Under the pieces are notes generated by a model. The model worked only from the letters and a program-made list of their open reading frames with translations, was not told where the DNA came from and searched no databases. Of a stretch of DNA of 64,000 bases, positions 3,826-31,100 are shown in pieces (the stretch's first letter is position 1; every line of letters begins with the position of its first letter). The position numbers and the translations under genes were made by a program. The stretch comes from an uncultured Mollicutes bacterium (GTDB lineage: Bacteria; Bacillota_I; Bacilli_A; RFN20; CAG-288). The DNA is taken from contig UQDS01000003.1 in assembly GCA_900539865.1 (NCBI GenBank), positions 90,789-154,788 on the forward strand, given 5' to 3'.

Positions 3826-4074
3826 ATGGCTAACGAAGAATATTACGTTGAAGAAAAAAAGATTGATGGCATCTTATTGCTCTTGTTATTCACTGTCGGA
3901 TGGTTAGGTTTTGAAAAGTTCTATGCCGGCAAAACTTTCAGAAGATCTTGGAAGTTCTGGTTGGTCAAATTCCTCTATTGTTTGATCGGCGTCGGTTTGA
4001 TTTGGAATATTTTTGATATTGTTCAAGCGTTCCGTAAAAAATACCAGCTCGATTTCAGAGAATATTTCCGCTAA
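3826..4074 (+). CDS. small hypothetical membrane protein (two predicted TM helices)
   Basis: It is an 82-aa ORF with hydrophobic segments and sits in its own intergenic context. Confidence 0.4.
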   Translation: MANEEYYVEEKKIDGILLLLLFTVGWLGFEKFYAGKTFRRSWKFWLVKFLYCLIGVGLIWNIFDIVQAFRKKYQLDFREYFR

Positions 4075-4135
4075 GCATTATTTAACACACCCTCTCTCTC
4101 TTGTGATAGAATACAAGTAATGGAGGATTTCCCGT

Positions 4136-4498
4136 ATGGAAGTTAGATTCTACAAAAACAAAGAAACAAAAGAAGTCGTTCTCTCTCTTGAAAAAATCGA
4201 AGATGCAAACATGCTTGAATTGAAGGCCAATGACACCGATGCTGCTTTAGAAAAGCACGTCCCTGTTGTCGAAATCAACGGCAATCACGTTCACGCTGTT
4301 GTCGGCTCTGTGCTTCATCCGATGACTGAGCCTCACTACATCGATTTCATCGCTTTGGTCACTGATCAAAAGGCTGAACTTAAGAGATTAGATCACACTG
4401 GCGCTCCGGAAGCTGATTTTGAATTAGCCGAAGGTGAAAAGGTTGTTGCAGTATATGAATTCTGCAATCTCCACGGCCTTTGGGTTAAAACTATCTAA
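4136..4498 (+). CDS. superoxide reductase (1Fe-SOR / neelaredoxin-type desulfoferrodoxin catalytic domain)
   Basis: The SOR active-site motifs EKHVPV and CNLHGLW are present with His ligands between them. No N-terminal CxxC desulforedoxin domain is present. A GGAGGA RBS lies upstream. Confidence 0.8.
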   Translation: MEVRFYKNKETKEVVLSLEKIEDANMLELKANDTDAALEKHVPVVEINGNHVHAVVGSVLHPMTEPHYIDFIALVTDQKAELKRLDHTGAPEADFELAEGEKVVAVYEFCNLHGLWVKTI

Positions 4499-4502
4499 AG
4501 TA

Positions 4503-4534
4503 AAACCGCTTGCTTTCGCAGGCGGTTTTTTTAT
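4503..4534 (+). terminator. rho-independent terminator after the SOR gene
   Basis: A aaaccgc...gcggttt hairpin is followed by a T-run of at least T7. Confidence 0.65.
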
Positions 4535-4584: not shown

Positions 4585-7497
4585 TCATCCGTTATCAATC
4601 TTTTCAAAGAGATATTCTTGGCAGTCGATATTCACTAAGACAAGACCTTCTTCCTTGGCTAAGAAACGCGCGAGCAAGGCAAGATATCTCACATCGTGTT
4701 CATGAGAAAGAACAATGTCTGGTAGCAAAGCGTATTCGATATCGTTCTCTTTATATATAAATAGATATCTTTCATCGCTTTGCATGGCAAAGTCTTCCTT
4801 AAACATCGAAAGGAATTTCTCAGAAAGTATCGTAAAATCAAAGCCGCTCTTGTAAATAACATCGCGGTTAATAAGAGTGTCATGATATCCTTGCGTGCGC
4901 ATATCAAAAATTGTTTTATCGCTCAGCAAAAGAACATCTTTTCCAAGTCTAAATGAGTTGATTAACTCAAAATTATTCATTAACATGCTATCAAAAATGA
5001 CAACATGGTTATAGGAATCATCGTTTAAATAAACTGAATCATCGAAGCTTACAATACCGATAGGATAACGAAGTGAAAGAAGCTTAATCTGCTCATCCTT
5101 CAATTGAGCATCGGTATTTTTTTCTAATATTTCTTTTTCTTCTTCAGTGATAAGCTTGTCAAAATCACACTCTGTTAAATTCTCTTTTAAGTGCGTTTGT
5201 ATGCTTTGATAACGAAGCAAGCGGCTGATTTCTTCATAGTGAGACAAATCATCTAAATACGCGCTTTCGACTTTTTCATAACTTTGAAGATATGGCTCAA
5301 AGAGTTTTCTTCCGCGATGGTATTTGGCATATGCTAACGCCATAAAGTACTCTCTCTTTAAATAACTCAACGGTCGTTGCTTACGCATATAAGAACGTAC
5401 AGTTAACTGCAAGAGAAAACTCGCCTGCTCTAAACCAGTATTGAAAGAAGCATAATCCATAAATTGTTTTATAGAGTTGTTCTTCAATTTTTGTAGATGC
5501 TTTAATATAGCTGTAAAAGAGTACTTAAAGTAATCGCGAGGCGCTTGTAAAAAATAACCGATTAACTGATTGATATTCTTTTGAATTTCATTGTATAACA
5601 GCGCAACATCTTTTCCCAAAGACTGCATATTGATGCGGAAATCCTTGTCTTTTAAATAGCGTTTGATAAAAGGATGATTCATCGAAAAATCGTCATCATC
5701 TTTGAAGTGATTTTTAAACTTCTTGATATAAGCGATGTTGCTTTCAATCTCCACGACACCGTTCATCGTCAAGACATTATCGCCGTAAACATCCTGATAC
5801 ATCGGAAGCAATCCATCTAGTTCTATCTTCGCAGCCAAGTATCCTTTAATGACTCTTAAGATGGTTACAAAGTCATTGGACTTTTTCAATTTAAAGTAAG
5901 ATAATATGCGTTTTTTTGCTTTTTTCTTACCGAAAAAAGAACCGTTTTCGTATTCTTTGACCATCGCATCAATATCTTCTTTATAGATTTCTTCATCAAA
6001 AAAGTTATCCATGATCAGTTTTGCAGAAGACAAATTTTGATAACGTCTTTTCAAATGTGACAAAGCGTAATATTCAGAGTTATTTTGGTTCAATTTAAAA
6101 TATTTTCTTGGAAAACCATTGTATTCCGAAAGGATTTTTAAATCGTCCAAATATTTTTCTAACTCTGCAAAATTGTTGATTTGAATATTGTAATCTTCTA
6201 AGAAATGATCTTCTTTAATCTCTTTTTGTAACGCTGTTATCTCATTGCACAAATCATCGATCAACGCGTTGATAACTTGATAATTTTCTTCTTTTGCAGT
6301 CGCTGTAAGCCCATAATAAGGATGGTCGATGACATACGAATTTAAAACAGATTCATAAGAATCCAAACGATTTAAATAATCGTAATCTTTTTCAAATTCT
6401 TCTTCTGTATAATCAGAAATATCCAGCGGCGGCAAATAGCTTGTTTTATCGATAGAATTCACCAAGAAATCAAATTTTCTTTCATTTCTCCTGAAATTGG
6501 AAAAATGAGTAATTTCATATTTCTTATCGACAAAATTGATATACCTCTCTTCGTTTAAAAGGAAATTCTCTACTTTTATCTCCTCTTGTACCGACAGCGG
6601 TTTGAGCAATTCTTTCTTCAACGCTTGTAGCGATTTCACAAAGTTAGCATCGTTATAGTCAAAACAAAAATCCATCAATTTTTCTTCTTTTAAGAAGTGT
6701 AACAACTCTTCTTTTTCGGACTTTGGAACAACGAAAAGAGTATTTTCTTTATTGCGGATAACCTCATATAAAAAACCTAAGACAATATAGTCGAATGCAT
6801 CTTTTCCCTGATAAGATATCTTCTCGCTTTTATAGCCCTCTAAACGCTTCTTAGAGCGCTCAAAACGAGCTAAGAAGCCAATATCTATCTTGCTGACTTC
6901 TTTTTCAATTTCACTATCTTTTAACTCTTTAAACAAGCCTTGATACTTAACAGGATATTCTTCTCCCTTTGCAAATTGATTTAAAAAAGGCATCGCCTGA
7001 ACATAATGAATATCAGCGACATCAAAATCAGTTAGACCATAAAGTAAGTCCACTTTATTTAAAAGTTTTTTCTCAAAGATTTTTTTCTTAATCGAATCAA
7101 TGAAGGCAAATAAAACACGGCCGTTTATTTCATCATTTAAATCTATTCCAAGTTCAAAAAAGAAAGCTGTAGCAACAGGATTTAAAAAATAAACAGAATG
7201 ATCAATATATAGTTTTCCATCTTTATAACTTGTCGTTAAAAAAAGAAGTGGATAATAACAATTCTTCGATTTGTCAAACACCAAAACCGGGGACACAAAA
7301 CGCTTGTGTACCTTCTTAACTTCGATAGGCAACGTATGTAAGAAACAGCTCAGAATACTTTCATCAAAAGGATCAAAGTTATCTTCGTTGATTTCTGAAA
7401 TGGTCAACCCCGCCTTTGCTTGCTTGATCATTTCTAAACAATCAATATGTGTTTCTATAAATTTATTGGCATTGTCCATAGTTACATTATATAGCAA
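4585..7497 (-). CDS. large hypothetical cytoplasmic protein (970 aa), no recognisable catalytic or NTP-binding motifs
   Basis: The ORF is long and uninterrupted, K/E/N/Y/F-rich and AT-rich. It is flanked on both sides by terminators and so forms a stand-alone transcription unit. Confidence 0.6.
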   Translation of the reverse strand: MLYNVTMDNANKFIETHIDCLEMIKQAKAGLTISEINEDNFDPFDESILSCFLHTLPIEVKKVHKRFVSPVLVFDKSKNCYYPLLFLTTSYKDGKLYIDHSVYFLNPVATAFFFELGIDLNDEINGRVLFAFIDSIKKKIFEKKLLNKVDLLYGLTDFDVADIHYVQAMPFLNQFAKGEEYPVKYQGLFKELKDSEIEKEVSKIDIGFLARFERSKKRLEGYKSEKISYQGKDAFDYIVLGFLYEVIRNKENTLFVVPKSEKEELLHFLKEEKLMDFCFDYNDANFVKSLQALKKELLKPLSVQEEIKVENFLLNEERYINFVDKKYEITHFSNFRRNERKFDFLVNSIDKTSYLPPLDISDYTEEEFEKDYDYLNRLDSYESVLNSYVIDHPYYGLTATAKEENYQVINALIDDLCNEITALQKEIKEDHFLEDYNIQINNFAELEKYLDDLKILSEYNGFPRKYFKLNQNNSEYYALSHLKRRYQNLSSAKLIMDNFFDEEIYKEDIDAMVKEYENGSFFGKKKAKKRILSYFKLKKSNDFVTILRVIKGYLAAKIELDGLLPMYQDVYGDNVLTMNGVVEIESNIAYIKKFKNHFKDDDDFSMNHPFIKRYLKDKDFRINMQSLGKDVALLYNEIQKNINQLIGYFLQAPRDYFKYSFTAILKHLQKLKNNSIKQFMDYASFNTGLEQASFLLQLTVRSYMRKQRPLSYLKREYFMALAYAKYHRGRKLFEPYLQSYEKVESAYLDDLSHYEEISRLLRYQSIQTHLKENLTECDFDKLITEEEKEILEKNTDAQLKDEQIKLLSLRYPIGIVSFDDSVYLNDDSYNHVVIFDSMLMNNFELINSFRLGKDVLLLSDKTIFDMRTQGYHDTLINRDVIYKSGFDFTILSEKFLSMFKEDFAMQSDERYLFIYKENDIEYALLPDIVLSHEHDVRYLALLARFLAKEEGLVLVNIDCQEYLFEKIDNG

Positions 7498-7521
7498 GAG
7501 AGAAACTGTACAAAATCAGAG

Positions 7522-7547
7522 ATAAAAAAATGCCGCCTTTTGGCGGC
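7522..7547 (-). terminator. rho-independent terminator of rpmE
   Basis: The hairpin atgccgcc-tttt-ggcggcat has an A-run on the plus side, which is the T-run on the minus strand. Confidence 0.7.
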
Positions 7548-7573
7548 ATATTCTATATTGCTTGACGAAATAC

Positions 7574-7786
7574 TTATTTCTTTTCGGAAGCAGCCAATTT
7601 CTTTCTGAACTTGGCAACACGACCGGTATCAGCAGCAAAAGTAAGCTTACCAGTGTAGAAAGAATGGCACTTGGAACAAGTATCAACTCTAATTTCAGGC
7701 TGAGTAGAACCAGTTTCAAAAGTGTTTCCGCAGGTTAAGCAAACAACCTTGGCGCGATAGTATTTCGGATGAATGTCCTTTTTCAT
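7574..7786 (-). CDS. rpmE: 50S ribosomal protein L31 (zinc-binding type A)
   Basis: The sequence MKKDIHPKYY...CLTCG...CSKCH is the hallmark of L31. Confidence 0.9.
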   Translation of the reverse strand: MKKDIHPKYYRAKVVCLTCGNTFETGSTQPEIRVDTCSKCHSFYTGKLTFAADTGRVAKFRKKLAASEKK

Positions 7787-10236: not shown

Positions 10237-10452
10237 TTATTTCCTTTCTTCATTCTCTCTCTTTTTAAACACAGCGTAAACATAACGTAAAACTACCAAA
10301 CCAATCATGCCTAAAATCATAAAAACAAGGCAGACAATCGCACCTGCATTTAATACACCGCTATCTTTTACAAGAAAAATCATTCCCAATAATCCTGCAA
10401 TGATAACAGCAACTGTAAAATAAAGAAGCGCTTGATACACAATTTTTTTCAT
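10237..10452 (-). CDS. small membrane protein (two TM helices), likely co-transcribed with the GH3 gene
   Basis: It is 71 aa and hydrophobic. Its stop codon lies 2 nt upstream of the GH3 start. Confidence 0.45.
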   Translation of the reverse strand: MKKIVYQALLYFTVAVIIAGLLGMIFLVKDSGVLNAGAIVCLVFMILGMIGLVVLRYVYAVFKKRENEERK

Positions 10453-10537: not shown

Positions 10538-12358
10538 TTAGGCGGCAGGAGAGAAAGCAGCGACAGCAGCTTTGATCTTTGCATCGATCGGGTTGATCTT
10601 AGCGCAGCCTTCCATATTGAAGCTGAACGGAACTAAGACATAACCGCCGTTGAATAAACCGCAGCTGACATCGACATTAGTGACAACATAATCACCTGTT
10701 TCACTCTTGGTGAGAGTAGGAGTAAATTCAGTCAAATATCCATCGAATGTCCAGCCCTTTTCTTTGCAGATTTCCGGAACAGTCATGCCATAGAAACCAG
10801 AAGCAAAGTCATCAGAGACAATCTGATTTCTAGAAATGTAGACATTACCAGAACCAGACTGATTCGGATATTCAGTGAATCCGTAAAGGACAGCCTGATT
10901 TTCTTCCTTGAAGGTGTTGTAGCTGGAAGGATACGGGATGAGATCCTTAACAGTACCCTTTCCAAGAGTCTTATCAACAACGACAACTTCCTGTGCTTCA
11001 TCAAGGTAGAACGGGTAGAGAGAATCGCCTTTATTGACGAAACCATCGACCTTAGAAACGCCTAATTGATTAGCAATGCTTTGGAAGTTGTACATACCGA
11101 CATTGTAGAGATAATCAGCGGTATGATAAGCGCCCATGGTTTCACCACCAGAAGTCATATTGAGGTAGAAGTCATCCTTTAAGAAAGAATCTTTGATCTT
11201 GGAAACAGTGGCGTTAAGAGGCGGTAATTCGACATTGACAGAAGCGGCATAATCGGTAAATCTAGTATCTAAAACGGTGGAACCGACATCAGATAAAGAG
11301 GCAGTGAATAACTTCTTTTCGTGGTTTTCTAATTGAATAGTGACAGAGTTATCACGATTGACTGTCAAGGTAGTGTTGACTTTAACAGCGATATCCTGAG
11401 CGGTGTAAGAAGTGATTCCGTTGTCTTTAAGATATTGTTCAAGACCGGTAGGATCGATGAGTTTCCAAAGCAACGCTTCGACCATAGCGGAATTGAATTC
11501 ACTTTCTGTTCCGACAATTTCGTAAGTGTTGGACGGATCCTTTTCAGCGGTGAGCCACTGCGGGTTGATCGCCTGGATACCATAGAAGCTGCTATCGACA
11601 TCCAACCAAGAAGCAGCTTGGAGACCTAAGCCTCTAAAGTTGTCCTTGTTCAACGGACCAACACCCTGACCTTGCGCGCTGATACCAGTGTTGTAAAGGC
11701 CGGTGGAATCTTCCATGAGGTAGAAAGCATCACCAGTGGTATCGATGGCAAGACCGTATAAATTGACGGTGCCGTGATCCTGAACATCTTCGACAACATA
11801 GTTTGCAGTGCCGTCACCCTTAGTAGCAGTGATACCAGCATCGGTGACTTTGACAATGTTGTGAACATCGCCGTTTTCATCCTTAGAAGTAAGGGTGTAG
11901 TTGGTGTTGCCAACTGCTTTCTTCCAAGCCTGACCTAAGTTGTAAAGAGGACGGATAACTTCAACTTCTGTAGAAGCGGTGATTGCCGGATTTGCCATAG
12001 AAGTAGCGATGATTTTCGCTTTGCCGATGGTCAAACCTTTAACGTTGATAGCAATGACACCTTCTGTCATTTCAGGAAGCTGAACGATTTCGCCATCCTG
12101 TTCGACAGTGAAAGAACAAGTGAGGTTAGAAGCACCGGGAATGGCAACTTTAACACGAATAGAAACAGTGTTGTTTCTTTCGACGACATAAGAATCCTTG
12201 AGGAATGTGATTTTTCCTGCAACAGGGTCGGTTGTCGGTTCAGTGACGCTCGGTTTTTCAGTGACACTTTCCTTGTCTGTTTCCGAGGTTCCGCCACCAC
12301 AAGCAGCAAGTGTAGTCAAGGCGACTAAACTAAGAATTAAAGAACTTTTCTTTTTCAT
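10538..12358 (-). CDS. surface lipoprotein with bacterial Ig-like (Big_2) domain, function unknown
   Basis: It has a signal peptide with a lipobox (LAAC-GGG) and a Big_2-like segment, and is 606 aa long. It lies adjacent to the GH3 gene. Confidence 0.6.
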   Translation of the reverse strand: MKKKSSLILSLVALTTLAACGGGTSETDKESVTEKPSVTEPTTDPVAGKITFLKDSYVVERNNTVSIRVKVAIPGASNLTCSFTVEQDGEIVQLPEMTEGVIAINVKGLTIGKAKIIATSMANPAITASTEVEVIRPLYNLGQAWKKAVGNTNYTLTSKDENGDVHNIVKVTDAGITATKGDGTANYVVEDVQDHGTVNLYGLAIDTTGDAFYLMEDSTGLYNTGISAQGQGVGPLNKDNFRGLGLQAASWLDVDSSFYGIQAINPQWLTAEKDPSNTYEIVGTESEFNSAMVEALLWKLIDPTGLEQYLKDNGITSYTAQDIAVKVNTTLTVNRDNSVTIQLENHEKKLFTASLSDVGSTVLDTRFTDYAASVNVELPPLNATVSKIKDSFLKDDFYLNMTSGGETMGAYHTADYLYNVGMYNFQSIANQLGVSKVDGFVNKGDSLYPFYLDEAQEVVVVDKTLGKGTVKDLIPYPSSYNTFKEENQAVLYGFTEYPNQSGSGNVYISRNQIVSDDFASGFYGMTVPEICKEKGWTFDGYLTEFTPTLTKSETGDYVVTNVDVSCGLFNGGYVLVPFSFNMEGCAKINPIDAKIKAAVAAFSPAA

Positions 12359-18884: not shown

Positions 18885-21794
18885 TTATTTATTGATACCA
18901 ACATAGGTAGGAAGTCTTAAAGTGGAGTTAACAATCTTATCCTGTCCATTGAAATCGACGGAGTAGACGAATGTGAGTGTGGCAATCGGAGTATTCACGA
19001 CATCTGCTTCAGCTTCCACGGTGTTGAACGCCTTGTCTAAGGTGATTTCAACAGTGTAATTGTTGCTAGCAGTTGCGCCGAACTCAGAAAGGTTCCACTT
19101 GCGAGTGATACCACCGTTTGTCGCCTGGATGGAGAAACCTTCTAACTTCGCACCAGCGTTGACTAATTCCTTGAAGGAAAGCTTATAAGTGACAGACTGA
19201 GAAGCTCTATCTGTGGTTTGACCAACCTTAGTAGCATTTGCTAAATCGCCCTTAGAGTTGAGAAGAACAGCAGTGTTAGCTGCATTCCACAAACCATCGA
19301 AAGACCAAGTCTTACCATCATAGACAATCGGATTTTTGGCATCGACCTTATCGGTGTCAGCGCCCCAGTTAAGGGTGAAACCAGAAGAGTTATCACTCTT
19401 TAAAACTTCAACGAAGTTAATCGGGTTAAGCGCGTTGCCAGAAACAGCACCGAAACCTAAGTCGAATTCACCACGTTTCATCTTGTCGTAAACGGCGTTG
19501 TAATCGCTAGAAGGTGTCGGTTCAACAAATCTGAGGATGTAATTTCCATAATATTTCTTGCTGACAAGTTCGTCGAAAGCTTTCTTGATGGAATCAAAGA
19601 CATCGGAATATTCCTTGGTGTCGTTGGGGTTCATCCAGTCAACTCTGACAGAGATGACATATGCGTTACCTTCTTTTTCAAGTTTTCCGGCTTCTGCCAT
19701 CTGTTTGATAGAACCTTCAATCGCTAATTCAAGTTCTTTCTTAGCGGCATCCGGGTTGTATCCATAAGTGTCGTTATAACGGTCAGCAAGGACAGCTTTG
19801 TGAGCGTCGGTGGAGTTATAAGAAACACCGCTTTCCGGATCGATGAGGTAGTTATCAGAGAAGTATTCTTGTGTCGGCTTCATACCACGGGATTCGCAAA
19901 TTGTCTTACGATCCATGGAGAAGGATAAGAAATTAAGGAAGTGAATATCAGACATGTAAGGTCTGTGTTGGAGGTAATCCGCTTTGGTAGTTTCGTTACC
20001 GTTGAAGTCGTGCTGATAAATCGTACCGTTCTTACCGAAACGATTTGTCCACTGTTCTACAGTAGAAGCGTTGACATTGAGTTTGAAGTTAGAATCGCCC
20101 TTGGTCTCATATTTTCTCCACTTGATGCCGTTGGAAGAAACACCGTCATTGGCACTATAAGCACCACCGGTCTTCAAATCTTCTTTGCTCGGAGCATAGG
20201 AGTCGATTTGACCTGCTTCAAAAGCATTCTTAGAAGTGGCCGGATCATCAACCATATGATATTCAAAGCCCTTAAGCTGATAAACATCACGTGTACCGCC
20301 AGAAGCGAAAACGTCTCTGGTGTAGAAATATTTGTCGTTCTTAGCGAAGGTAATATCCTTATCTTCCCAACGGGTGATGTAGTAAGGACCTGTGGAAAGC
20401 ATGGTGTCTAACGGTTTGTATCCGTCAGGAGACTTACCTAAATCCTTCGGATTCCAAAGGTTGAGGAAGTCGCCAGGAAGCGGAGAGTAGAGAGAAGAGG
20501 AGAGATAATACATGGCGTAGAACTGTGTGCAAGGCTGCTGGAGTGTGAATTCAATGTAATCACCGGATTCATCATGACCAGTCTTGACAACATTGTCCAT
20601 GTTGCATTCTTTCCACAACTTTTCGTTGTAGTAATTATAATCGCCAGTGAGATTGGAAGTCTTAGCTAAGTAATCGGCAGCCTCTAATCCTAAACCGGAA
20701 ATACCTTTGGTTTGTTCCGGACCTCTATACTGACCATTGTAACCAGTGAGCATGTACTTGATCGGAGCGATGTAGTCGTCCAAAGCGACCTTTCTACCAT
20801 CAAAGCTCTTGAGCTGAACTCCGTTCTTTGACTTGGTAGAAGCAGTACGATAGACAAAGTCTTCGCCGGTCTTGACGTGGATTCTCCACTTGTTGCTCAA
20901 GACAGAGTCCTGATTTTCAGTGATGACAGAGCCAGAATCCGATAACGGAAGCGGACGATCATCTGTAGAAAGAAGCGGATACCACTCATAACCGTCGTTG
21001 GTTTCGTTCATACGAGTAGAGAAGTAAGAGGTGGTGATGTGCTGAGCAGCATCGGAAACGTCAGAACCAGATGCGTTCATGGCATTGAGGTGAGCAGGAA
21101 GCGCAGTGGTACCGACCTGATACATTTCCGCATCGTGACCAATGAACGGATTCGGAAGCTTACCAGTGAGCTTACCTTCTCTCATTGTTCCCCAACCATA
21201 ACCGTTGATGTAAGACGGAGCGGTAGGAACATAACGGTTGTTATAAACAATGTTAGAACCGTTAGAGAACATGGTGATACCAGTGAGATAGTTATCGACA
21301 GCATATTTTTCTAATGCGCCGAGAATATTGGCTTTTTCTTCATAGCTTGCAGTTGCGTAAGAGAAAGCGCCTTCTGCTTGCTGTGTCGCTTTGACAGTGA
21401 CAGTGAAAACCATGTTCTGAGTATCATCGCCAGTCGGATGGACTGTGATGTCTGCAGAACCAGCTTTTACCGGCTTGAGTAAACCGTTGTTTTCATCGAC
21501 ACCAAGAACACTCGGATCACTCGATGTATAAGTGAATTCAGGAACATTGCCAGTGAGATCAGTAGCGACAAGGATTGCAGTCTTGTCACCAAGATAGACT
21601 TCAATTCCTGCACCCTGTTCATATTGTTGACCTTTATAGGTGACATAGAAAGCAACATCAGTGATGTCAGAAGTGTGACCGGAGTTACCAGTGTCTGTGC
21701 TAGGACCGACACTCGGCTGGTTACCGCCGCAAGATCCAAGAAGAGCAACAGATACGAGCGCTAACAACGTAAGACCTTTTTTCATGTTTTTCAT
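18885..21794 (-). CDS. oppA: oligopeptide-binding lipoprotein OppA (enlarged, 969 aa)
   Basis: It has a signal peptide with the lipobox LLGSC-GG and substrate-binding-protein family-5-like regions. It is the first gene of the operon. Confidence 0.75.
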   Translation of the reverse strand: MKNMKKGLTLLALVSVALLGSCGGNQPSVGPSTDTGNSGHTSDITDVAFYVTYKGQQYEQGAGIEVYLGDKTAILVATDLTGNVPEFTYTSSDPSVLGVDENNGLLKPVKAGSADITVHPTGDDTQNMVFTVTVKATQQAEGAFSYATASYEEKANILGALEKYAVDNYLTGITMFSNGSNIVYNNRYVPTAPSYINGYGWGTMREGKLTGKLPNPFIGHDAEMYQVGTTALPAHLNAMNASGSDVSDAAQHITTSYFSTRMNETNDGYEWYPLLSTDDRPLPLSDSGSVITENQDSVLSNKWRIHVKTGEDFVYRTASTKSKNGVQLKSFDGRKVALDDYIAPIKYMLTGYNGQYRGPEQTKGISGLGLEAADYLAKTSNLTGDYNYYNEKLWKECNMDNVVKTGHDESGDYIEFTLQQPCTQFYAMYYLSSSLYSPLPGDFLNLWNPKDLGKSPDGYKPLDTMLSTGPYYITRWEDKDITFAKNDKYFYTRDVFASGGTRDVYQLKGFEYHMVDDPATSKNAFEAGQIDSYAPSKEDLKTGGAYSANDGVSSNGIKWRKYETKGDSNFKLNVNASTVEQWTNRFGKNGTIYQHDFNGNETTKADYLQHRPYMSDIHFLNFLSFSMDRKTICESRGMKPTQEYFSDNYLIDPESGVSYNSTDAHKAVLADRYNDTYGYNPDAAKKELELAIEGSIKQMAEAGKLEKEGNAYVISVRVDWMNPNDTKEYSDVFDSIKKAFDELVSKKYYGNYILRFVEPTPSSDYNAVYDKMKRGEFDLGFGAVSGNALNPINFVEVLKSDNSSGFTLNWGADTDKVDAKNPIVYDGKTWSFDGLWNAANTAVLLNSKGDLANATKVGQTTDRASQSVTYKLSFKELVNAGAKLEGFSIQATNGGITRKWNLSEFGATASNNYTVEITLDKAFNTVEAEADVVNTPIATLTFVYSVDFNGQDKIVNSTLRLPTYVGINK

Positions 21795-21996
21795 ATTTTT
21801 ACCTCCTTTGGGTTTTAAATCGACAAATAAAAAACTTTTCCTTGTGTAAAAACAAGTATTTATATTTTATTTAATATACTTATATTTGCAATGTATAATT
21901 TTATAAAAATCAATATATAGACAATCTTAAGATTGATAGCGGTTACATATTTTCTTGGTTGTCAAGAAAAAACACACCCGCTTTTCATGCTTTTCG

Positions 21997-22377
21997 TCAA
22001 TGAATAAAGGCGAAAATAATGCTGAGAATAGCAAAGATTGTACCGATGATAACAAAAGGAAGCCAAAAATTCTTTCGGCCCTCTCTCACTTCATTCAACT
22101 TTTCCTGATAGGAATAAGCGTCTTTATAAGGACGAGGACTATTTTTCTTAAACGACGACATCCAGTTGATAAATTGATATCGAAAGACATCAAAAGTACC
22201 TCCCCTAGTTATCGCATAAAGACCACTGCCACCAAGATATAATGTGGCAATCAAAGCAAAAATATTGCTCAAAACCCAGTCCGTCAAAAAATACATCGGG
22301 AGAAAAATAATCAGTGGAACGATGATTGCTACGCCTGTAATAATACAAAGCTTTTTTAAATAATCTGTGAACAACAT
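21997..22377 (-). CDS. small membrane protein (DUF3899-like)
   Basis: It is 126 aa with TM segments at both ends. It lies downstream of the subtilase terminator. Confidence 0.45.
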   Translation of the reverse strand: MLFTDYLKKLCIITGVAIIVPLIIFLPMYFLTDWVLSNIFALIATLYLGGSGLYAITRGGTFDVFRYQFINWMSSFKKNSPRPYKDAYSYQEKLNEVREGRKNFWLPFVIIGTIFAILSIIFAFIH

Positions 22378-22382
22378 AAGTT

Positions 22383-22422
22383 AAAAAATAGACAAAGGCC
22401 TCGGAAAAACCGGGGCCTTTGT
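22383..22422 (-). terminator. rho-independent terminator of the subtilase gene
   Basis: The hairpin caaaggcc...ggcctttg has a plus-strand A6 run, which is the T-run on the minus strand. Confidence 0.6.
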
Positions 22423-22435
22423 AATAGAAGACAAA

Positions 22436-25400
22436 TTACTTGTCGGCCTTCTTCTTGAAGATGGCAACAGCAGCTCCTAAGAGAGCAAGTGCGCCAACAG
22501 TGGAAGAAGCGATGACGACAGAACCGCCACAGCCGCCCTTTTCAGGTTCCGAAGTGGAAGTGCCGCCTTCGGTTGTGCCGCCGCTAGAGGAGTCACCACC
22601 AGAAGATTCACCGCCAGTAGAGCCGCCACCAGTTCCTTCAGATGCAGGAGCGTGGTTGATTGTAAAGGAAGCAGCATCTTTACTAAACGTGAAGCTGATT
22701 AAACCAGTTTCGGCGTTGTAGTTGACCTGGACAGATTCGCCATCGACAAAGACCTTAATGTCATCGACATTCAAATTCTTTGCGATGTTCATGTTGATCG
22801 TCATATCCTGCTTTCTGATGACAGAGTCACCGGTAGCAGCGTTAAGAATATCAACAGCGTAGGTGTAATTTCCGTTAGAAGCATTGATTAAAGTGATGTC
22901 ATAATCTTGCTTCGAAGTGAAGAAAGTAGAAGAGACAGAGAAGTCAATCTGAGAAGGCTTGACTAAGATCTTCTGAGTGTTGTGAGCGTGGTCGGTGAGT
23001 TCAACAAACATCTTATCCTCTTCCTTCCAGCTATCGTTGATCCAGAAGTAAGTAGAGGTGAGATCTGTGCCAGCAATCTCTTCCATCTCACGACCAACTG
23101 TGACGTTGACGGAAGCGAAGGAAGCACCATGGGTGACAATATTGAGACGGTCATCTCCATCTTCCTGAGTGATGGAAAGACCAGCTAAAGTCGGAGCAGT
23201 CTTATCGACAACAAGAGTGTACTGTTTGACTTGCATTGTTCCAGTACCGATCTTCTTGAAGTTGAACTTCAATGTGTATTCGCCTTCCGGAACAGTGGAA
23301 AGGTCGATATCGACATAGCCGCGATGGATCATGAATCCAGTGCCATTTGCAACTAAGAAGGACTTCATCAATTCTCCCATATCCTGAGCAACTGCCGCAG
23401 TACCATAGGTGTATAAATCGCGGATATTCTCGCCTTTAATCTTCTTACCATCTTTATTGATGATTTCATAGTTTGCATCAGAAACTGCACGGTTGACGAA
23501 GAAGGTACCAATCAAATGTTCAGAGACACCAGGAGCACCAGCATAGATGCGATCCTTGTTCTTTCCATCGGTAACTGTCAAGTAAGTTGTACCGTTTGGT
23601 TTTGTGCTTTCATCGAAGGTGTTGATACGAGCGAAGTTTTCACTGGTCAAACCAGAAGCGCTTGCAGCGAGAGTGGAGCCGGCATAAGCATAAGGTTTCT
23701 TATAGGCATCGGCTAAGTTCTGCACGTAGTTGCTGACAAGATCAGAACCATAGAGCTTGCCTTCTTCTCTTTCGAAATCAAATGCTTCTACAGCATCGGC
23801 CTTAGTGTAATCACCATAGAATCCCATGAACGGAACAGAGAGTTCGCTCTTTACATCTTTCTTGGTGCTGACATCTTCGAAATCGAGATAGCCTTCGATA
23901 TAGTTACCGCCTGCTTCTTCGAAATACTTCTGGTAATATTCTTTCAAGGTACCCTTGAAGTTTTCAACCTGAGAGTCGTTGAATTCTTTTTCAAACGGAA
24001 GGTTGTCAATTCTGACTTTGCACTTGCCGCTGATTTCGCCATTTGCAGGAACGACAACATTGTCTAATTCAACTTTCTTGACCAAATCATCAAGAACTGT
24101 TGTGGTGATTTGACCAACACCATAAGGATAATCAGAAGAGTTCTTATTATAACCGATAACTTCGGATTTGGAAGATTCTTCCATATTGTCATATTCATCG
24201 TGAGAAACCGCAACTCTCAAGCTAGGAACCATGACAGAGAGCGCCGGCTTGTAAGTTCTTTCGACTGCGGAATCATTGTGGATTGTGTAATCGAATTCAA
24301 TATAGCTTTCAGTAGTATCGCTTGTATTAGAGAAATCAACCTTGAGAGACTTAGAATTCTTTAATTCCACTTTGGATTGAACCGTATTTTCAAATCCTTG
24401 AGTGTCTTCGTTAGGAACAGTGATGTAAGAGTCAGAGGTGAGCATCTTTTCGACATCGATACGACCAGCACCCTGAACTCTCGGAGAAGCGTAGTTTCCG
24501 TCGCCGGAAGTGCTAAGGAGCTTCTCAGTAGAAGACATTGCCTTCATAGAAGCGACTTTCTTTTCGTTTTCGAAAGCCTGTGCATCTTGAAGCGCAAGTG
24601 TTCCCTTATTATCCGGTTTTCTTTCAGAGAGATATAAAGCTAATGCACCGGTGAAGTTAGGAGCTGCCATAGAAGTACCGGACATATTTTCATAACCAGT
24701 TAAGAAGGAATAACCAGGATTCATCGGGTTGGAACCATCGTTGTAATATTCAGCGCTGACAGCACCCATGATTTCTTTACCAGGAGCTGCAACAGTGACA
24801 CCCATATCGAGGTTTGCTTCGCCGCCGTCACTAGAGAAAGAAGCTAACATGTTGCCATCGCTAGCAGTCTGGGTAGTGTTAGTAGCGATAGTAAGCTTAC
24901 CTTCGTTACCGCTATTTTCATCCGGTAAACCGAAGATTCCTTTGGAGTTTTGGAAAACAAAGACAATCGGAATAGAAGGATCATTATCCGCAAAGTCCAT
25001 AGAGAAGTTGAAGGTGACAGAAGGATCGTTGTTGATGACGATCAATGCTTTTGCACCGTGAGATGCAGCAGAGAGATATTTGTTGACGAAGGAAGTAGTA
25101 CCACGGGAGACAACCGCAATCTTACCAGAGACATAGGAATCTGTCTTCGGGTTGTAAGAGCTAGTGTCGATACCATGAGCTCTATCGACCTTTTCATAGT
25201 CGGAATCTTTACCCCAGCCAGGAATGACAACATATTCGAAATCGGCAGAAGACTGACCTTGCGGCAATAAAGAAGCCAAAGGACGATCGGTGACGTTCGG
25301 TTGTGTGGCAGAGGATTTAGCCTGGTCGTTATAAGCGACAGCGCTCGGAGCAGAAGCATCCTTGTTTTGGACAGTAAGAATCGAAGAGAAGAAAGCTTTT

Positions 25401-26623
25401 TCCGGATTAGAAGCCGCAACGATATTGGCAGATTCATCAAAGTGAGATTCACCACCTAAGATACTGGTTTCCACCATGTCACGAGTCCAGTCGCCATAAG
25501 AAGCAGAGCTGGAGAAACTAGACTTACCAGAGTTACCGGCAGCATAGTTGACAATGACACCGGCTTTGGAAGCAGCGTTGATTGCTCTGTAACCGGCAGA
25601 TTCTGTATTGTCACCGCTGGTGTTAAGGTCCGTACCTAAAGAGAGGTTGACAACATCGAGTTTAAGTTTTGCAGCATCTTCCAACGCTTTGATAACCGCG
25701 CCTTCAGAAGCGCCGCCATCATAGTCCGGGAAGACCTTCATAACAGCGATTTGAGCTTTCGGGGCAATACCCTGGAAAACATCGCCGTTAGCACCTGCTA
25801 AAGAAGCGACGTGTGTACCATGTTCACTTCCGTTGCTTGTCGGATCGACATTGTTGTCGCCGCCGTCATAGTCGCGAGCGAAGAAGACTTTGTTGTTGAC
25901 GTGAGTGAAATAATTTTCCTTAAAGCCTTTGCTGATGACATCATCCTTGGTGACAGAATAATCACCGGCAGAAAGATCTTTAAAAGCGGCGGGGTTGAGT
26001 TTCTTTCCCTGACTGAGAAGTTTTTCTCTGGTTTCAGAACCTTCAACCTGGTTGAGATAAAGACCGGTATCGATGATACCTACTGTGATGTTTTTACCTT
26101 GCTGAGAAGAAACGCCTTCGCTGGCGCCTCTCTTCTTCAAAGCATCGGCAACCGCTTTGTTCGTGGCATCCATGGTTTCAGCAGAATAGTTTGCTAATCT
26201 GAGTTCACGGGTTTCATAACCAGCGTCTGTAGGAAGCATAGAGTCTAAACCAGTGCTGACAGCCTCCGGTCTAGCGTAGGTGTGAGAAGCCAAAACTTCG
26301 CTGACACCATTGACAGATTTGAGATAATCTTCATAACGGGCGTTGACTTTGATTTCAAAGCCGTTGAGAAGAGTGTCATAGGTATTAACCACTTCAAAAG
26401 AACCTTGTGGAAGGTTGTAAGTAATTTGGTTAAGAACTTTGTTACGGTTATACTTCAAGGAAGCAGCATCGTCTTTGAATACATCGCCATCACAAAGGAC
26501 AATGTATGACTTGTCTTCATCATTCTTAGCAAGTTTATCACTGATTTTTGTGTGACTTGCAGAATAGAAACTAAGTCCGAGGATGGTTGCTAAAGAAGCC
26601 ATAACGATAAATTGTTTTTTCAT
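22436..26623 (-). CDS. cell-envelope subtilisin-like serine protease (peptidase S8, lactocepin/C5a-peptidase-like) with PA-domain insert, G/S-rich stalk and C-terminal TM anchor
   Basis: It has a signal peptide and the catalytic motifs VGIIDTGL (Asp), HGTHVAS (His) and GTSMAAP (Ser). The C-terminus ...GGCGGSVVIASSTVGALALLGAAVAIFKKKADK has no LPXTG. Confidence 0.85.
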   Translation of the reverse strand: MKKQFIVMASLATILGLSFYSASHTKISDKLAKNDEDKSYIVLCDGDVFKDDAASLKYNRNKVLNQITYNLPQGSFEVVNTYDTLLNGFEIKVNARYEDYLKSVNGVSEVLASHTYARPEAVSTGLDSMLPTDAGYETRELRLANYSAETMDATNKAVADALKKRGASEGVSSQQGKNITVGIIDTGLYLNQVEGSETREKLLSQGKKLNPAAFKDLSAGDYSVTKDDVISKGFKENYFTHVNNKVFFARDYDGGDNNVDPTSNGSEHGTHVASLAGANGDVFQGIAPKAQIAVMKVFPDYDGGASEGAVIKALEDAAKLKLDVVNLSLGTDLNTSGDNTESAGYRAINAASKAGVIVNYAAGNSGKSSFSSSASYGDWTRDMVETSILGGESHFDESANIVAASNPEKAFFSSILTVQNKDASAPSAVAYNDQAKSSATQPNVTDRPLASLLPQGQSSADFEYVVIPGWGKDSDYEKVDRAHGIDTSSYNPKTDSYVSGKIAVVSRGTTSFVNKYLSAASHGAKALIVINNDPSVTFNFSMDFADNDPSIPIVFVFQNSKGIFGLPDENSGNEGKLTIATNTTQTASDGNMLASFSSDGGEANLDMGVTVAAPGKEIMGAVSAEYYNDGSNPMNPGYSFLTGYENMSGTSMAAPNFTGALALYLSERKPDNKGTLALQDAQAFENEKKVASMKAMSSTEKLLSTSGDGNYASPRVQGAGRIDVEKMLTSDSYITVPNEDTQGFENTVQSKVELKNSKSLKVDFSNTSDTTESYIEFDYTIHNDSAVERTYKPALSVMVPSLRVAVSHDEYDNMEESSKSEVIGYNKNSSDYPYGVGQITTTVLDDLVKKVELDNVVVPANGEISGKCKVRIDNLPFEKEFNDSQVENFKGTLKEYYQKYFEEAGGNYIEGYLDFEDVSTKKDVKSELSVPFMGFYGDYTKADAVEAFDFEREEGKLYGSDLVSNYVQNLADAYKKPYAYAGSTLAASASGLTSENFARINTFDESTKPNGTTYLTVTDGKNKDRIYAGAPGVSEHLIGTFFVNRAVSDANYEIINKDGKKIKGENIRDLYTYGTAAVAQDMGELMKSFLVANGTGFMIHRGYVDIDLSTVPEGEYTLKFNFKKIGTGTMQVKQYTLVVDKTAPTLAGLSITQEDGDDRLNIVTHGASFASVNVTVGREMEEIAGTDLTSTYFWINDSWKEEDKMFVELTDHAHNTQKILVKPSQIDFSVSSTFFTSKQDYDITLINASNGNYTYAVDILNAATGDSVIRKQDMTINMNIAKNLNVDDIKVFVDGESVQVNYNAETGLISFTFSKDAASFTINHAPASEGTGGGSTGGESSGGDSSSGGTTEGGTSTSEPEKGGCGGSVVIASSTVGALALLGAAVAIFKKKADK

Positions 26624-28125: not shown

Positions 28126-31100
28126 CTACTTGTTATCGTTCGTACGGAAAATGAAGTTATAAACAGAGTACTTTCCGTTGAAATGATAAATTTCCGAGAA
28201 ACTATAGCTATGACCGATGGCGGAATCTTTCAAAGCAGAACTATCCAATGGTAATTTATCAATGATGGAGGGACCGATATGCAAACTCTTTTTAATTGTA
28301 GAATTGATGATTGGTGTGAGAATGAAATCATACTGTAACGCCTTCATTTCAATGTTCTTACTGGCAAGAATCAACTGTTCAAAGTTCATATGTCGCAAGG
28401 AAAGCGGAACTTCTAACTGGTTCAAAACGATGTAAGCATTAAACTCATCCGCGAATTTTTTCTTCATCGCAAAGCGATAAGTGTTCAACAATACAGCATA
28501 GTTTAACGCCTCTTTATATGCGCCTTCTGCCTGACCATCGAAAGTGAGGAAGACATAGCCGTTTTTACCATATGTTGTCTTCATTTCTAAGAAGGAGCGA
28601 GGGCAAGTTCTTTGCGCTGTGCGATCGATCAAATCATAGAAAAGCTTTTCTTTCGTATTGTCAGAACCGTCTTCTTTTGAGCTTGTGCATTTGACAAAGA
28701 TATAAATCAATTTCGTAGTCTTCTTTTCGTTTCTCTTTGCCACTTCTAAAGCTTCTGCAGTGTTATAAGGATCGGTGATAAAGTCATCAGAAACAATTTG
28801 GAAGCCCTTAGCATCTTCTACGATATTAAATTCTTTTCCATTAGTAGAGAAGGACTCTTCTTTCATATCTTGTAAAGATAAAAGATTTCCGATAACAACA
28901 TTATTTTTGTTTTCTTCATAACGTGGATTGATAACACGATAATTCCATCCATAATCACTATTTTTAATATTGAATTCTTTCTTTCTGATCAAGCGGCCTG
29001 CAAAATCAGTGACAAAGTCTTTCTCTTCTCCGATGATTTCATCCCAATAATCATATGCTTTCGCTTCGTTTTTGATCTCTTCATCAACATAAGAAACATC
29101 GCTTTGTCCGAGTTCTTCTACCTCGTTATCCGCAAGATTTAAATCATATACTTTTTCATTGTCTTTTCTAACCCAAGTGGTATGACTTAAAAGTGCTTCT
29201 TCGATATTATTTGTCTCTAATGCAAGAGCGTTTTCCGAAAGATAAGAAGTCATCTCATTATAGAAATTCAAATCTCCGCCCAAAGAGACATAAATCAATT
29301 TCATTTCTAAAGCCTTGTTTTTCTTTTGAGTTGTCTCTAATTCTTCTTCTGTTCTTGTCACTTTTTCTTTTAAGGTGACAAGTTCTTCTCCTAAGGACTT
29401 GTTTTCCGATAAGGAACTTTCATTCGCTAAGCGGATAGCAGCGAATTCTTTTTCATATTCTTCTAACTTCAATCCTTCTTGCGCAGATTTGCTTTCCAAC
29501 GCCTGCTTTTCTTCTTTCAATTGTTCTAATTCTTGTTGTTGTTCTTCTTTTAAAGAAGAAAGTTCACTTACTTGTGAAGTTAAAACTTCTAAATTTTCTT
29601 TCAATTGGGCATTTTCATGAGAAAATTCATTGCGTTCAAAAGCGATGCTATCAAAGCGTTCACTCGCTAATTTATCTTCTTCTTCCTCTCTTGCTTTTTC
29701 TTCTAAGAGAGCAGTCTTTTCCGCTTCTAACGCTTCTTTTGTTTGCTTGAGTGTTTCCAATTCCTTCAGCAATTCTTCTCTTTGTGTTTCTTGTGCTTTC
29801 TCTTTTAACAAAACTTGTTGTTCTCTCTCTGAAATTAAAACATTCAAAGAAGAAATTGTGTCGCGAAGTGTATTTTCGTCGTTTTCACAATTTTCCAATT
29901 TTTCTTTTTGCTCTTTCAATTCTTGAGCCATTTTTTCTAATTGCAATGTTTGTTCTTGAAGTTGTTGTTTCAGTTTTTCAGTTTCTTCTTCTTTCTCATT
30001 TAAAGAAGCCTCTTTCAAAGTTAACACTTCTTCTTGATTCTTTTCTAAAAGTAAAACTTTGTGCATGTAATCTTCTTTTTGAAGAGAAAGTGCATCTTTT
30101 TCATCGGTTAAAGTCTCCACCTTCATCTTCCAATCCGTGATTTCTTGCGATAAGTTTTCCTTCTCGTTCACAACATTTTGATAAGAACTCTTACATTCTG
30201 CTAACTGAGAAGACAATTCTTCTACCTGTTTATTTAAACGATTGATCTCTGTCTCATCGTTGATTGATTTCGCCATCAACGTTTCCGCTTTTGCTTTATA
30301 GGAATCCAATAGACCATCCAATTCAAAACGATTGGCTTCGCCAAGTTCTTTCATCTGTTGATTCAATTCTTGAATCTGTTGTTTCATGTGACATTTTTCT
30401 TTCGTCACATTTTCTAAATCAACCAAAAGCTGTTCTTTCGCACCCGAAAGATTGTCTTTTGCTTGTGCTAAAGTAGCAATCAATTCTTTGGCTGAAACCA
30501 AAGAATTTCTTGTGATTCCCAACTCTGTTTTAATTTCTTCAAAAGAAGATAGCAACGATTCATAATTCGTTTTTAATTCTTCTTTTTCCTGGATGAGAAT
30601 ATTCTTTTCATCCGTCAAATCAGCAACTTTTGTAAGTAGAAGTTCTGTTTCTTCCTCTTCAGAAGATATTTCTTCCTTTTTCTCTTCGTGGACAATTTCT
30701 GTCTCTGTTTCAAAAGGATCTACAACATCGATATCAACCGATGTCACTTCTTTTTCTAATCCATCTGTCAAAATAGTCTCGTGAGATAAAGTATCTTCTT
30801 CCTCTTCTTCCGTGATTTCGACAGGTTCCCCTTCAAAAATAATATCGCTGATTTCCTTATCATCCAAAATTTCTTCTTTGTCACCTAAATCAACTTCTTC
30901 GACGACTTCTTTTTGTTCAATATTTTTCGTAACTGTTTCCGGGTTGACCTCTTTTAAGATTTTTTCATCCGAAAGAGAAGTTTCTACTTGTGAAGCATTA
31001 AAAACAGGTGCTTGATCCAAATTTTGATTATCGGCGTTTGTCTCTTCTTCAAATTCAAAACCTACCGTATTTTCCGAAAAAACTTTATCGCGGATATTTT

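What the first reader, a model, noticed from the sequence alone, without database searches (positions are those of the whole stretch)
4585..7497. 970-aa orphan protein with no recognisable motifs in an AT-rich stand-alone transcription unit
This long clean ORF sits between the SOR gene and rpmE, and each of those neighbours has its own terminator. It shows no Walker A/B, nuclease, protease, TM or signal-peptide signatures. Its composition is K/E/N/Y/F-rich and its DNA is visibly more AT-rich than the flanking housekeeping genes. This may indicate horizontal acquisition or a lineage-specific factor. The C-terminal 150 aa (...RYLFIYKENDIEYALLPDIVLSHEHDVRYLALLARFL...) hint at a restriction-endonuclease-like or helicase-C-like fold, but I cannot support that.
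Basis: inference. Interest (0 to 1): 0.55.

Follow-up and report, generated by a model that had tools for sequence, protein, structure and literature searches.

The report
Catalytically dead helicase–nuclease relic, vertically inherited
The "orphan" 964-aa protein is a real, conserved gene of a clade of uncultured small-genome Bacilli: a stripped-down descendant of a large DUF4011 helicase–nuclease (the class that defence finders call Hhe / PDC-S37) that has lost its ATP-binding and nuclease residues, so it probably works by binding rather than by catalysis.

The parts
4585..7479 (-). CDS, 964 aa plus a TAA stop. The maximal ORF extends to a TTG at 7497, but the ATG at 7479 is the start conserved in orthologues.
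6970..7443 (-). aa 13-170: N-terminal alpha/beta domain, a shortened DUF4011. Relatives that pass Pfam's DUF4011 threshold carry 53-68 more residues inserted at about aa 59. P77, L78 and N100 are conserved.
   Evidence: Pfam DUF4011 above the gathering score in P0045/46/51/53/56/58/60. Insertion map. hhalign to the DUF4011 core of P0095. Model pLDDT about 90.
6643..6831 (-). aa 217-279: first half of the RecA1-like helicase domain (strands 218-223, 247-250 and 272-274).
6787..6810 (-). aa 224-231, QGKDAFDY: the position of the helicase Walker A (GPPGTGKS in P0095). The P-loop is destroyed: Lys aligns to D230 and Ser to Y231. These columns are unconserved across the family.
5068..6642 (-). aa 280-804: 525-residue all-helical insertion inside RecA1, and the most conserved part of the family. 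Signature blocks: Y357/D365, HPYYGL at 386-391, EYNGFPRKYF at 452-461, YGDNVLTMNGVVEIESN at 565-581, PFIKRYLKDKDFR at 603-615, and S687. Part of it is homologous to the same insertion in PDC-S37/DUF4011 helicases.
4822..5067 (-). aa 805-886: second half of the RecA1-like domain (strands 807-810, 823-829, 846-854 and 867-870).
4981..5013 (-). aa 823-833, YNHVVIFDSML: remnant of helicase motif II. The helicase's FDIVVFDEASQ aligns here, with Asp opposite F829 and Glu opposite D830.
4903..4944 (-). aa 846-859, GKDVLLLSDKTIFD: remnant of helicase motif III (GKDAVIVGDPNQMP in P0095).
4588..4821 (-). aa 887-964: C-terminal alpha-beta-beta-beta-alpha-beta-alpha domain, the positional and probable evolutionary remnant of the Vsr-like MTES_1575 nuclease domain. 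Only D921 of the parent's three acidic positions is kept (F907 and L919 replace the other two). The wHTH/DUF3320 module that follows in the 1150-1280-aa relatives is absent here.
   Evidence: A direct hhalign of this tail alone is not significant.
7486..7491 (-). TATAAT box ending 7 nt before the ATG, with no Shine-Dalgarno. This suggests a leaderless or near-leaderless mRNA. The same arrangement occurs in the orthologous loci L002, L003 and L004.
7530..7549 (-). rpmE terminator-like hairpin, which separates rpmE from the target gene.
4502..4529 (+). SOR terminator-like hairpin, 56 nt beyond the target's stop on the convergent strand. It may serve both genes.

Best explanation
The gene encodes a catalytically inert, shortened descendant of the large DUF4011 - SF1B (Upf1/Dna2-like) helicase - Vsr-like nuclease - wHTH proteins, the class that defence finders call Hhe / PDC-S37. 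Shown: it keeps the N-terminal DUF4011-type domain and a RecA1-like helicase domain split by a ~525-aa helical insertion. Its Walker A and motif II/III positions are not conserved as catalytic residues. It has no second RecA domain and no wHTH. It is one orthologous, vertically inherited, origin-proximal chromosomal gene of a clade of uncultured Bacilli with genomes of about 1 Mb. It evolves quickly but under purifying selection. Supported less strongly (secondary-structure topology plus an alignment anchored through longer relatives): the small C-terminal domain is what remains of the nuclease. Inferred: it cannot bind or hydrolyse ATP in the normal way, cannot translocate and probably cannot cut. 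Because selection acts mainly on the helical insertion and the DUF4011 domain, it most likely works as an ATP-independent recognition or scaffold protein. The precedent is the dead helicase-nuclease RecC, or the dead helicase half of AddB. It would bind a nucleic-acid structure or a partner protein through the helical arch and DUF4011 module. What it binds is unknown.
Against: No biochemical data exist for this family. In the papers I found, no mechanism is described for the parent class: it appears there only in defence-system tables and lists, or as a conserved chromosomal marker gene. The nuclease-remnant assignment fails a direct profile test (E 0.7); it rests on topology plus an alignment anchored through longer relatives. 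Foldseek against the PDB gave nothing significant. The protein is acidic (pI 5.3, net -31), which does not favour generic DNA binding, although the parent helicases and the local proteome are equally acidic. No partner gene is encoded nearby, so the RecC-like scaffold idea has no direct support.
Confidence: 0.75

Rival explanations
1. It is still an active motor or nuclease that uses non-canonical catalytic residues, for example K226 and D830 as substitutes, and acts like its Hhe/PDC-S37 parents in defence or DNA processing.
Against: No P-loop exists in any member. The P-loop columns show no residue above 50% across the family, and K226 is not conserved. The Mg-binding Asp of Walker B aligns to Phe. 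There is no second RecA domain, because only about 30 residues separate the motif III remnant from the tail, and SF1 ATP hydrolysis and translocation need both RecA domains (established knowledge of SF1 helicases). Two of three acidic nuclease positions are hydrophobic.
Confidence: 0.07
2. It is a horizontally acquired accessory or defence-island gene, as the first reader suggested from its AT-richness.
For: Overall GC is 5 points below the window. The parent class is catalogued as an anti-phage system. The gene evolves fast. L004 has Schlafen/AlbA_2-type and AAA_14/DUF4143 genes inserted nearby.
Against: GC3 is within 0.5 sd of the window's genes. The same chromosomal position recurs in every locus examined across the family, next to rpmE/SOR/metS and origin-proximal genes. 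There are no hits in plasmids, phages or viral contigs. It is uniformly present and full-length in 17 within-species variants.
Confidence: 0.05
3. It is a decaying relic with no function, an ORF kept open by chance or by weak selection.
For: All recognisable catalytic features are lost. Sequence divergence is very fast. The one within-species comparison shows 5 nonsynonymous and 0 synonymous differences.
Against: An ORF of 940-1280 aa stays open in more than 60 lineages diverged to about 15% identity. Two columns are invariant and six nearly invariant, with long conserved blocks in the helical insert. pN is far below pS between species. The gene is retained where the longest carrying contigs are only 1.0-1.1 Mb, which suggests small genomes. 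It has its own conserved promoter arrangement.
Confidence: 0.05
4. It is a non-catalytic protein whose conserved helical module binds a protein partner or forms a structural assembly unrelated to nucleic acids. On this reading the helicase ancestry is only history.
For: Constraint is concentrated in a 525-aa helical insert rich in invariant aromatic residues. All modules are acidic. Foldseek's weak hits are to long coiled-coil or SMC-type proteins.
Against: The Foldseek hits are insignificant (TM <0.1). The DUF4011 and RecA1 parts are also retained and modelled confidently. The acidity matches the parent helicases.
Confidence: 0.15

Closest known systems
Hhe / PADLOC PDC-S37 class: DUF4011 - AAA_11/AAA_12 (Upf1/Dna2-like SF1B helicase) - MTES_1575 Vsr-like nuclease - DUF3320 wHTH proteins of about 1600-1900 aa, e.g. 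P0095-P0097
   Same: Homologous by profile and by fold. Domain order is the same: DUF4011, then RecA1 split by a giant helical insertion with similar spacing (608 vs 624 aa), then a Vsr-like domain. Such genes can also be conserved chromosomal genes: a core marker in P. aeruginosa and chromosomal in Mycoplasma.
   Different: It has no P-loop, no DE in motif II, no RecA2/AAA_12, only one of three acidic nuclease positions, and no wHTH. It is half the length. It scores 34.5 bits on PDC-S37 against 1206-1810 for true members and gives no Hhe hit. It passes no Pfam model.
RecC of RecBCD, and the helicase-like domain of AddB (dead SF1 helicase folds used as scaffolds)
   Different: No specific sequence relationship was shown. 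RecC and AddB work in obligate complexes with active partners encoded alongside, whereas no partner is encoded near this gene. This is an analogy of mechanism, not membership.
Upf1-like SF1B helicases (Upf1, Ighmbp2, Dna2, senataxin/Sen1, ZNFX1, nsp13)
   Different: Those are active ATPases with both RecA domains. Their insertions (1B/1C) are small compared with the 525-aa helical module here.
The ~1150-1280-aa members of the same new family (e.g. P0011, P0060)
   Same: Same family, same synteny, and also without a P-loop or RecA2.
   Different: They keep a C-terminal extension of 138-216 aa homologous to the parent's DUF3320/wHTH end. Many also keep a full-size, Pfam-detectable DUF4011. The window protein is the more reduced form.

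Membership tests
DUF4011 helicase-nuclease (Hhe / PDC-S37) | N-terminal DUF4011 domain passing Pfam's PF13195 gathering score | tested here: not met
   The window protein has 0 Pfam hits at E<=1. Seven distant family members do pass. The window protein's domain lacks about 65 residues.
DUF4011 helicase-nuclease (Hhe / PDC-S37) | Homology to the family by profile-profile comparison, colinear over several domains | tested here: met
   hmmsearch E 5.6e-11. hhalign prob 95.7%/E 9.8e-9, E 2.9e-5, and prob 93.3%/E 2.8e-7.
DUF4011 helicase-nuclease (Hhe / PDC-S37) | Walker A P-loop, GxxGxGK[ST] | tested here: not met
   GPPGTGKS aligns to QGKDAFDY. No P-loop at this position in any of 94 family sequences. 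The columns are unconserved.
DUF4011 helicase-nuclease (Hhe / PDC-S37) | Motif II DE(A/S)xQ and motif III GDxxQ | tested here: not met
   DEASQ aligns to FDSML and VGDPNQ to LSDKTI. The family consensus lacks the acidic pair.
DUF4011 helicase-nuclease (Hhe / PDC-S37) | Second RecA domain (AAA_12, motifs IV-VI) | tested here: not met
   No Pfam AAA_12 hit. Only about 30 residues lie between the motif III remnant and the C-terminal tail. The longer relatives also lack it.
DUF4011 helicase-nuclease (Hhe / PDC-S37) | Vsr-like MTES_1575 nuclease domain with its acidic residues | tested here: inconclusive
   The topology (alpha-beta-beta-beta-alpha-beta-alpha) and an anchored alignment support a remnant. 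A direct hhalign of the tail is not significant. Acidic positions: the Asp of 'rID' aligns to F907, the Glu to L919, and D921 is kept.
DUF4011 helicase-nuclease (Hhe / PDC-S37) | C-terminal wHTH (DUF3320) | tested here: not met
   The protein ends at aa 964, directly after the tail. The module is present only in the 1150-1280-aa relatives.
DUF4011 helicase-nuclease (Hhe / PDC-S37) | Full-length match to the PADLOC Hhe or PDC-S37 HMMs | tested here: not met
   PDC-S37 scores 34.5 bits over aa 313-722 only, with no Hhe hit. True members score 1206-1810 and 591-655 bits. Five other family members give no hit.
SF1B (Upf1-like) helicase fold | RecA-like alpha/beta domain with inserted accessory domain | tested here: met
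RecC/AddB-type dead-helicase scaffold | Obligate active helicase or nuclease partner | not testable with these tools
   No partner lies within the 64-kb window. Whole genomes could not be searched.

The most novel reading that the evidence does not exclude
A former helicase-nuclease of a class catalogued as anti-phage defence has been domesticated in a reduced-genome Bacilli clade into an ATP-independent core chromosomal factor. It would be a RecC-like recognition or scaffold protein whose conserved 525-aa helical arch plus DUF4011 domain reads a DNA or RNA structure or recruits another enzyme. If so, it would give the first functional handle on what the DUF4011 and helical-insert modules of the whole Hhe/PDC-S37 class recognise.
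Probability: 0.25. Interest if true: 0.6.

Novelty: new variant of a known kind. Interest (0 to 1): 0.4.

Why it matters
The result converts an unannotated "hypothetical protein" family (about 92 clusters, with no Pfam or NCBIfam model) into a defined evolutionary product: a pseudo-helicase/pseudo-nuclease derived from the DUF4011 Hhe/PDC-S37 class. The family discarded the catalytic parts and kept the DUF4011 domain and the giant helical insertion under selection. That makes it a natural experiment isolating the non-catalytic, presumably substrate-recognising module of a poorly understood helicase-nuclease class. It also shows that such a gene can be a stable, vertically inherited, origin-proximal chromosomal gene in what appear to be ~1-Mb genomes, rather than a mobile defence gene. 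In practical terms, it supports building a new family model and annotating these proteins as "DUF4011-related inactive helicase-like protein".

Tried and rejected
1. Single-sequence Pfam, NCBIfam and PHROGs scans gave nothing usable.
2. Sequence searches against the PDB with 5- and 67-sequence profiles gave nothing.
4. Foldseek against the PDB on the good model gave no hit at E<=1e-3, only spurious SMC or coiled-coil matches and weak Setx/nsp13 hits. afdb50 was unavailable.
5. I first guessed that "VVPKSEKEE" was the degenerate Walker A. hhalign shows it is the motif Ia strand, and the P-loop position is 224-231.
6. Direct hhalign of the C-terminal 79 aa against the MTES nuclease domain was not significant. 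The assignment was recovered only with the anchored alignment.
7. Compositional evidence for HGT is rejected on GC3.
8. Plasmid, phage and viral-contig searches were empty.
9. Acidity as a clue to DNA mimicry or protein binding is rejected, because the parent helicases and the local proteome are equally acidic.
10. Within-species dN/dS has too few differences to interpret (5N:0S).
11. The word-indexed search with the 67-sequence alignment recovered few family members and is unreliable for this low-complexity-rich family.
12. An Rfam scan of the window found no RNA element.
Full report
**Observation**

The window has an uninterrupted minus-strand ORF at 4585..7497. Its translation begins LLYNVTMDNANK. 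Orthologues all begin at the Met (MDNANK / MSSEHK / MNEEKK / MNDEK / MENENK), so the real start is the ATG at 7479, giving 964 aa.

From base composition, 970 open codons have a probability of about 1e-35. The opposite strand of the same region never stays open for more than 79 codons.

A 120-aa desulfoferrodoxin/SOR gene lies convergent at 4136-4498, and rpmE (L31) lies upstream at 7574-7786. Each is followed by a GC-rich hairpin and a T-run (4502-4529 and 7549-7530).

Pfam and NCBIfam give no hit at E<=1. There is no Walker A and no TM segment or signal peptide.

The gene is AT-richer than its surroundings: 33.1% GC against 38.2% for the window, with an ORF mean of 39.0 +/- 3.7. Third-codon-position GC is ordinary, though (34.6% against 37.1 +/- 4.6). 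The AT-richness therefore reflects the K/E/D/N/Y/F/I-rich protein rather than foreign DNA.

**It is a family, not an orphan**

The word-indexed search found only five full-length relatives at 31-100% identity. The exhaustive HMMER search with their alignment found 92 cluster representatives, 63 of them at E<=1e-30. About 40 are around 950 aa long and about 25 are 1150-1283 aa. Where NCBI or JGI give these proteins any name, it is "hypothetical protein".

The one GTDB species-representative hit is "MAG: Bacilli bacterium RGIG4442" from roe-deer omasum. Contigs carrying the gene reach 1.04-1.12 Mb, which suggests small genomes.

**Ancestry**

Seven of the sixteen longer relatives scanned have an N-terminal Pfam DUF4011 above the gathering score. 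A profile of 67 family members (A2) retrieves three proteins of 1843-1923 aa from the 5.8-billion-sequence database at E 5.6e-11 to 3.9e-4. Their Pfam architecture is DUF4011 - AAA_11 - AAA_12 - MTES_1575 - DUF3320. PADLOC classifies them end-to-end as PDC-S37 (1206-1810 bits) and also as Hhe (591-655 bits). The window protein itself gives a weak PDC-S37 hit (E 1.2e-9, aa 313-722).

Profile-profile alignment of A2 to P0095 has 95.7% probability (E 9.8e-9, 439 columns) and covers three regions:
- the DUF4011 core (YPLxF...P..N..L...GI);
- the first half of RecA1;
- the start of the large helical insertion.

In that alignment the helicase's Walker A GPPGTGKS lies opposite QGKDAFDY (aa 224-231), with the catalytic Lys opposite D230. 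Its motif Ia strand tVLFVAek lies opposite TLFVVPKS.

A C-terminal slice aligns to motif II/III (E 2.9e-5). FDIVVFDEASQ...RGKDAVIVGDPNQMP lies opposite YNHVVIFDSML...LGKDVLLLSDKTIF, so the Walker B Asp-Glu is Phe-Asp here and the motif III Gly and Gln are Ser and Ile. The spacing from the Walker A position to the motif II position is 608 aa, against 624 in P0095.

**Fold**

The secondary structure fits this layout:
- an alpha/beta N-domain (13-170);
- RecA1 strands at 218-223, 247-250 and 272-274;
- an all-helical module at 280-804;
- RecA1 strands at 807-810, 823-829, 846-854 and 867-870;
- a final alpha-beta-beta-beta-alpha-beta-alpha unit at 887-963.

**What was lost**

No sequence in the family has a P-loop at the expected place. 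Across the family the P-loop columns have no majority residue, and the acidic pair of motif II is absent. Information content peaks in the helical module, at aa 340-720.

There is no room for a second RecA domain, because only about 30 residues lie between the motif III remnant and the tail.

The longer relatives differ from the window protein in two ways:
- A 53-68-aa insertion at about aa 59 in most of them. This explains why Pfam still recognises DUF4011 in several of them but not in the window protein.
- A 138-216-aa C-terminal extension. It aligns to the parent's extreme C-terminus, the DUF3320 region (prob 87.5%). Anantharaman et al. (PMC3710099) describe DUF3320 as overlapping wHTH domains that follow a Vsr-family REase domain in the MTES_1575 proteins.

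When the tail and the extension are aligned together, the match extends back through the whole MTES nuclease domain in the register predicted from secondary structure (prob 93.3%, E 2.8e-7, 295 columns). In that register the helicase's "yrID" Asp falls on the family's Leu (F907 here), the Glu of "IEcDG" falls on L919, and its Asp falls on the conserved D921.

Tested alone, the 79-residue tail is not significantly similar to the nuclease domain (E 0.7). I therefore treat "Vsr-like remnant" as likely rather than proven.

**Inheritance and selection**

The gene occupies the same place in every locus recovered. In the window, L001, L002, L004/5, L011 and L012 it lies between L31 and the convergent SOR / small TM2-like gene pair, where the contig reaches that far, near GH3 and metS. 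In L003 it lies beside GH3 and near rpmH-rnpA-yidC-jag.

The same holds for remote members. P0011 (30% identity) and P0060 (16% identity, with Pfam DUF4011) are still near rpmE, metS, GH3 or SOR. The most distant members, P0087 and P0069, are still followed by the TM2-like gene and SOR, and lie next to rpmH-rnpA-yidC and dnaX-recR.

In the window, dnaA lies at 37869-39233 and gene orientation flips near 39.5 kb. The gene is therefore about 30 kb from the probable origin, on the leading strand. No relatives occur in PLSDB plasmids, INPHARED phages or IMG/VR contigs. Horizontal acquisition is therefore not supported.

The protein evolves fast. Its identity is 47/36/31% in loci where MetRS is 92/80%, L31 is 96/93/93% and SOR is 82/64%. 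Selection is nonetheless purifying. Against the 65% orthologue, pN is 0.21 and pS is saturated at 0.78. Seventeen within-species variants are all 964 aa with 0-5 substitutions. The family keeps two invariant and six nearly invariant columns across its full divergence.

**How it most likely works**

Shown: ancestry from a DUF4011 SF1B helicase-nuclease; retention of the DUF4011-type domain, RecA1 and the giant helical insert; and absence of the ATPase motifs, RecA2 and the wHTH. Supported less strongly: the C-terminal tail is a nuclease remnant with two of three acidic positions lost.

Inferred: without a P-loop, a Walker B acidic pair or a second RecA domain, the protein cannot run the SF1 ATPase/translocation cycle. 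With two of three acidic nuclease positions hydrophobic, it probably cannot cut. Because selection acts on the helical module and the DUF4011 domain, the retained activity is most likely binding of a nucleic-acid structure or of a partner protein.

In the papers I found, no mechanism is given for the parent class. Hhe appears in defence-system tables and lists. DUF4011 genes also occur as core or chromosomal genes in P. aeruginosa and Mycoplasma.

**Verdict**

It is wrong about horizontal acquisition.

The object is a new, catalytically dead, truncated variant of a known helicase-nuclease class, forming an unmodelled family. It fails the defining catalytic and architectural features of Hhe/PDC-S37, so it should not be filed as a member. 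Interest is moderate. Pseudo-enzymes derived from helicases are known, but this one isolates the uncharacterised DUF4011 and helical-insert module as a conserved chromosomal gene of a clade with apparently small genomes.

Noticed in passing
window 7479-7515 (minus strand); L002, L003, L004 upstream of the orthologous ATG: The target gene has no Shine-Dalgarno, whereas rpmE and SOR have GGAGG. A TATAAT box ends 7 nt before its ATG, and orthologues have TATAAT 7-10 nt upstream of theirs. This suggests a conserved leaderless or near-leaderless mRNA. The distant relative in L007 has a normal GGAG instead.
   Followed up: partly
window 10538-12358 (-) and 10237-10452 (-): A 606-aa protein has no Pfam hit, and a 71-aa protein follows it (its orthologues give weak zinc-ribbon hits). 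Both lie just upstream of the GH3 gene. The arrangement recurs in the orthologous loci, and the 606-aa protein evolves as fast as the target (48/33/31% identity). It is a second unannotated lineage-specific gene.
   Followed up: partly
window 28126-31533 (-): A 1135-aa ORF has no Pfam family at E<=1e-5 and is also AT-rich (35.0% GC). It is another large unannotated protein.
   Followed up: no
window 37869-39233 (-) and about 39.3-39.8 kb: dnaA is here. The long ORFs from 3 to 39 kb are on the minus strand (two short genes at 3.8-4.5 kb are on +), and those just after 39.8 kb are on the plus strand. The chromosomal replication origin is probably in the 39.3-39.8 kb gap. In other family loci the target lies beside rpmH-rnpA-yidC-jag, which are also origin-proximal.
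   Followed up: partly
window 3826-4498 (+) and L004, L008, L013, L015: The convergent pair of a small TM2-like membrane protein (about 80 aa) and SOR (120 aa) follows the target gene across much of the family, including its most divergent members. This is a neighbourhood conserved for a very long time on the opposite strand. It probably reflects low rearrangement rather than a functional link, but that was not tested.
   Followed up: partly
window 4585-7479 vs L011 3001-5895: Against a same-species variant, the target shows 5 nonsynonymous and 0 synonymous differences, while GH3 next door shows 3 and 2. This is too few to test, but it fits relaxed or diversifying selection in the recent past.
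   Followed up: partly
L004 5745-6986, 11770-13077, 16731-18050; L008 14644-15966: In some relatives' loci, AAA_14/DUF4143 ATPase genes and Schlafen/AlbA_2 + HATPase_c_4 genes are inserted into the otherwise conserved neighbourhood. They are possible defence or mobile insertions near the target's locus.
   Followed up: no
window 1-64000: No Rfam family reaches its gathering score anywhere in the 64-kb window: no rRNA, tRNA, riboswitch or T-box, including upstream of metS.
   Followed up: no
window 18885-26623 (-): A 1395-aa S8 subtilase with a PA domain and a 969-aa protein with a Big-like domain lie downstream of the Opp-type ABC transporter genes. They look like a set of large secreted or surface proteins.
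   Followed up: no
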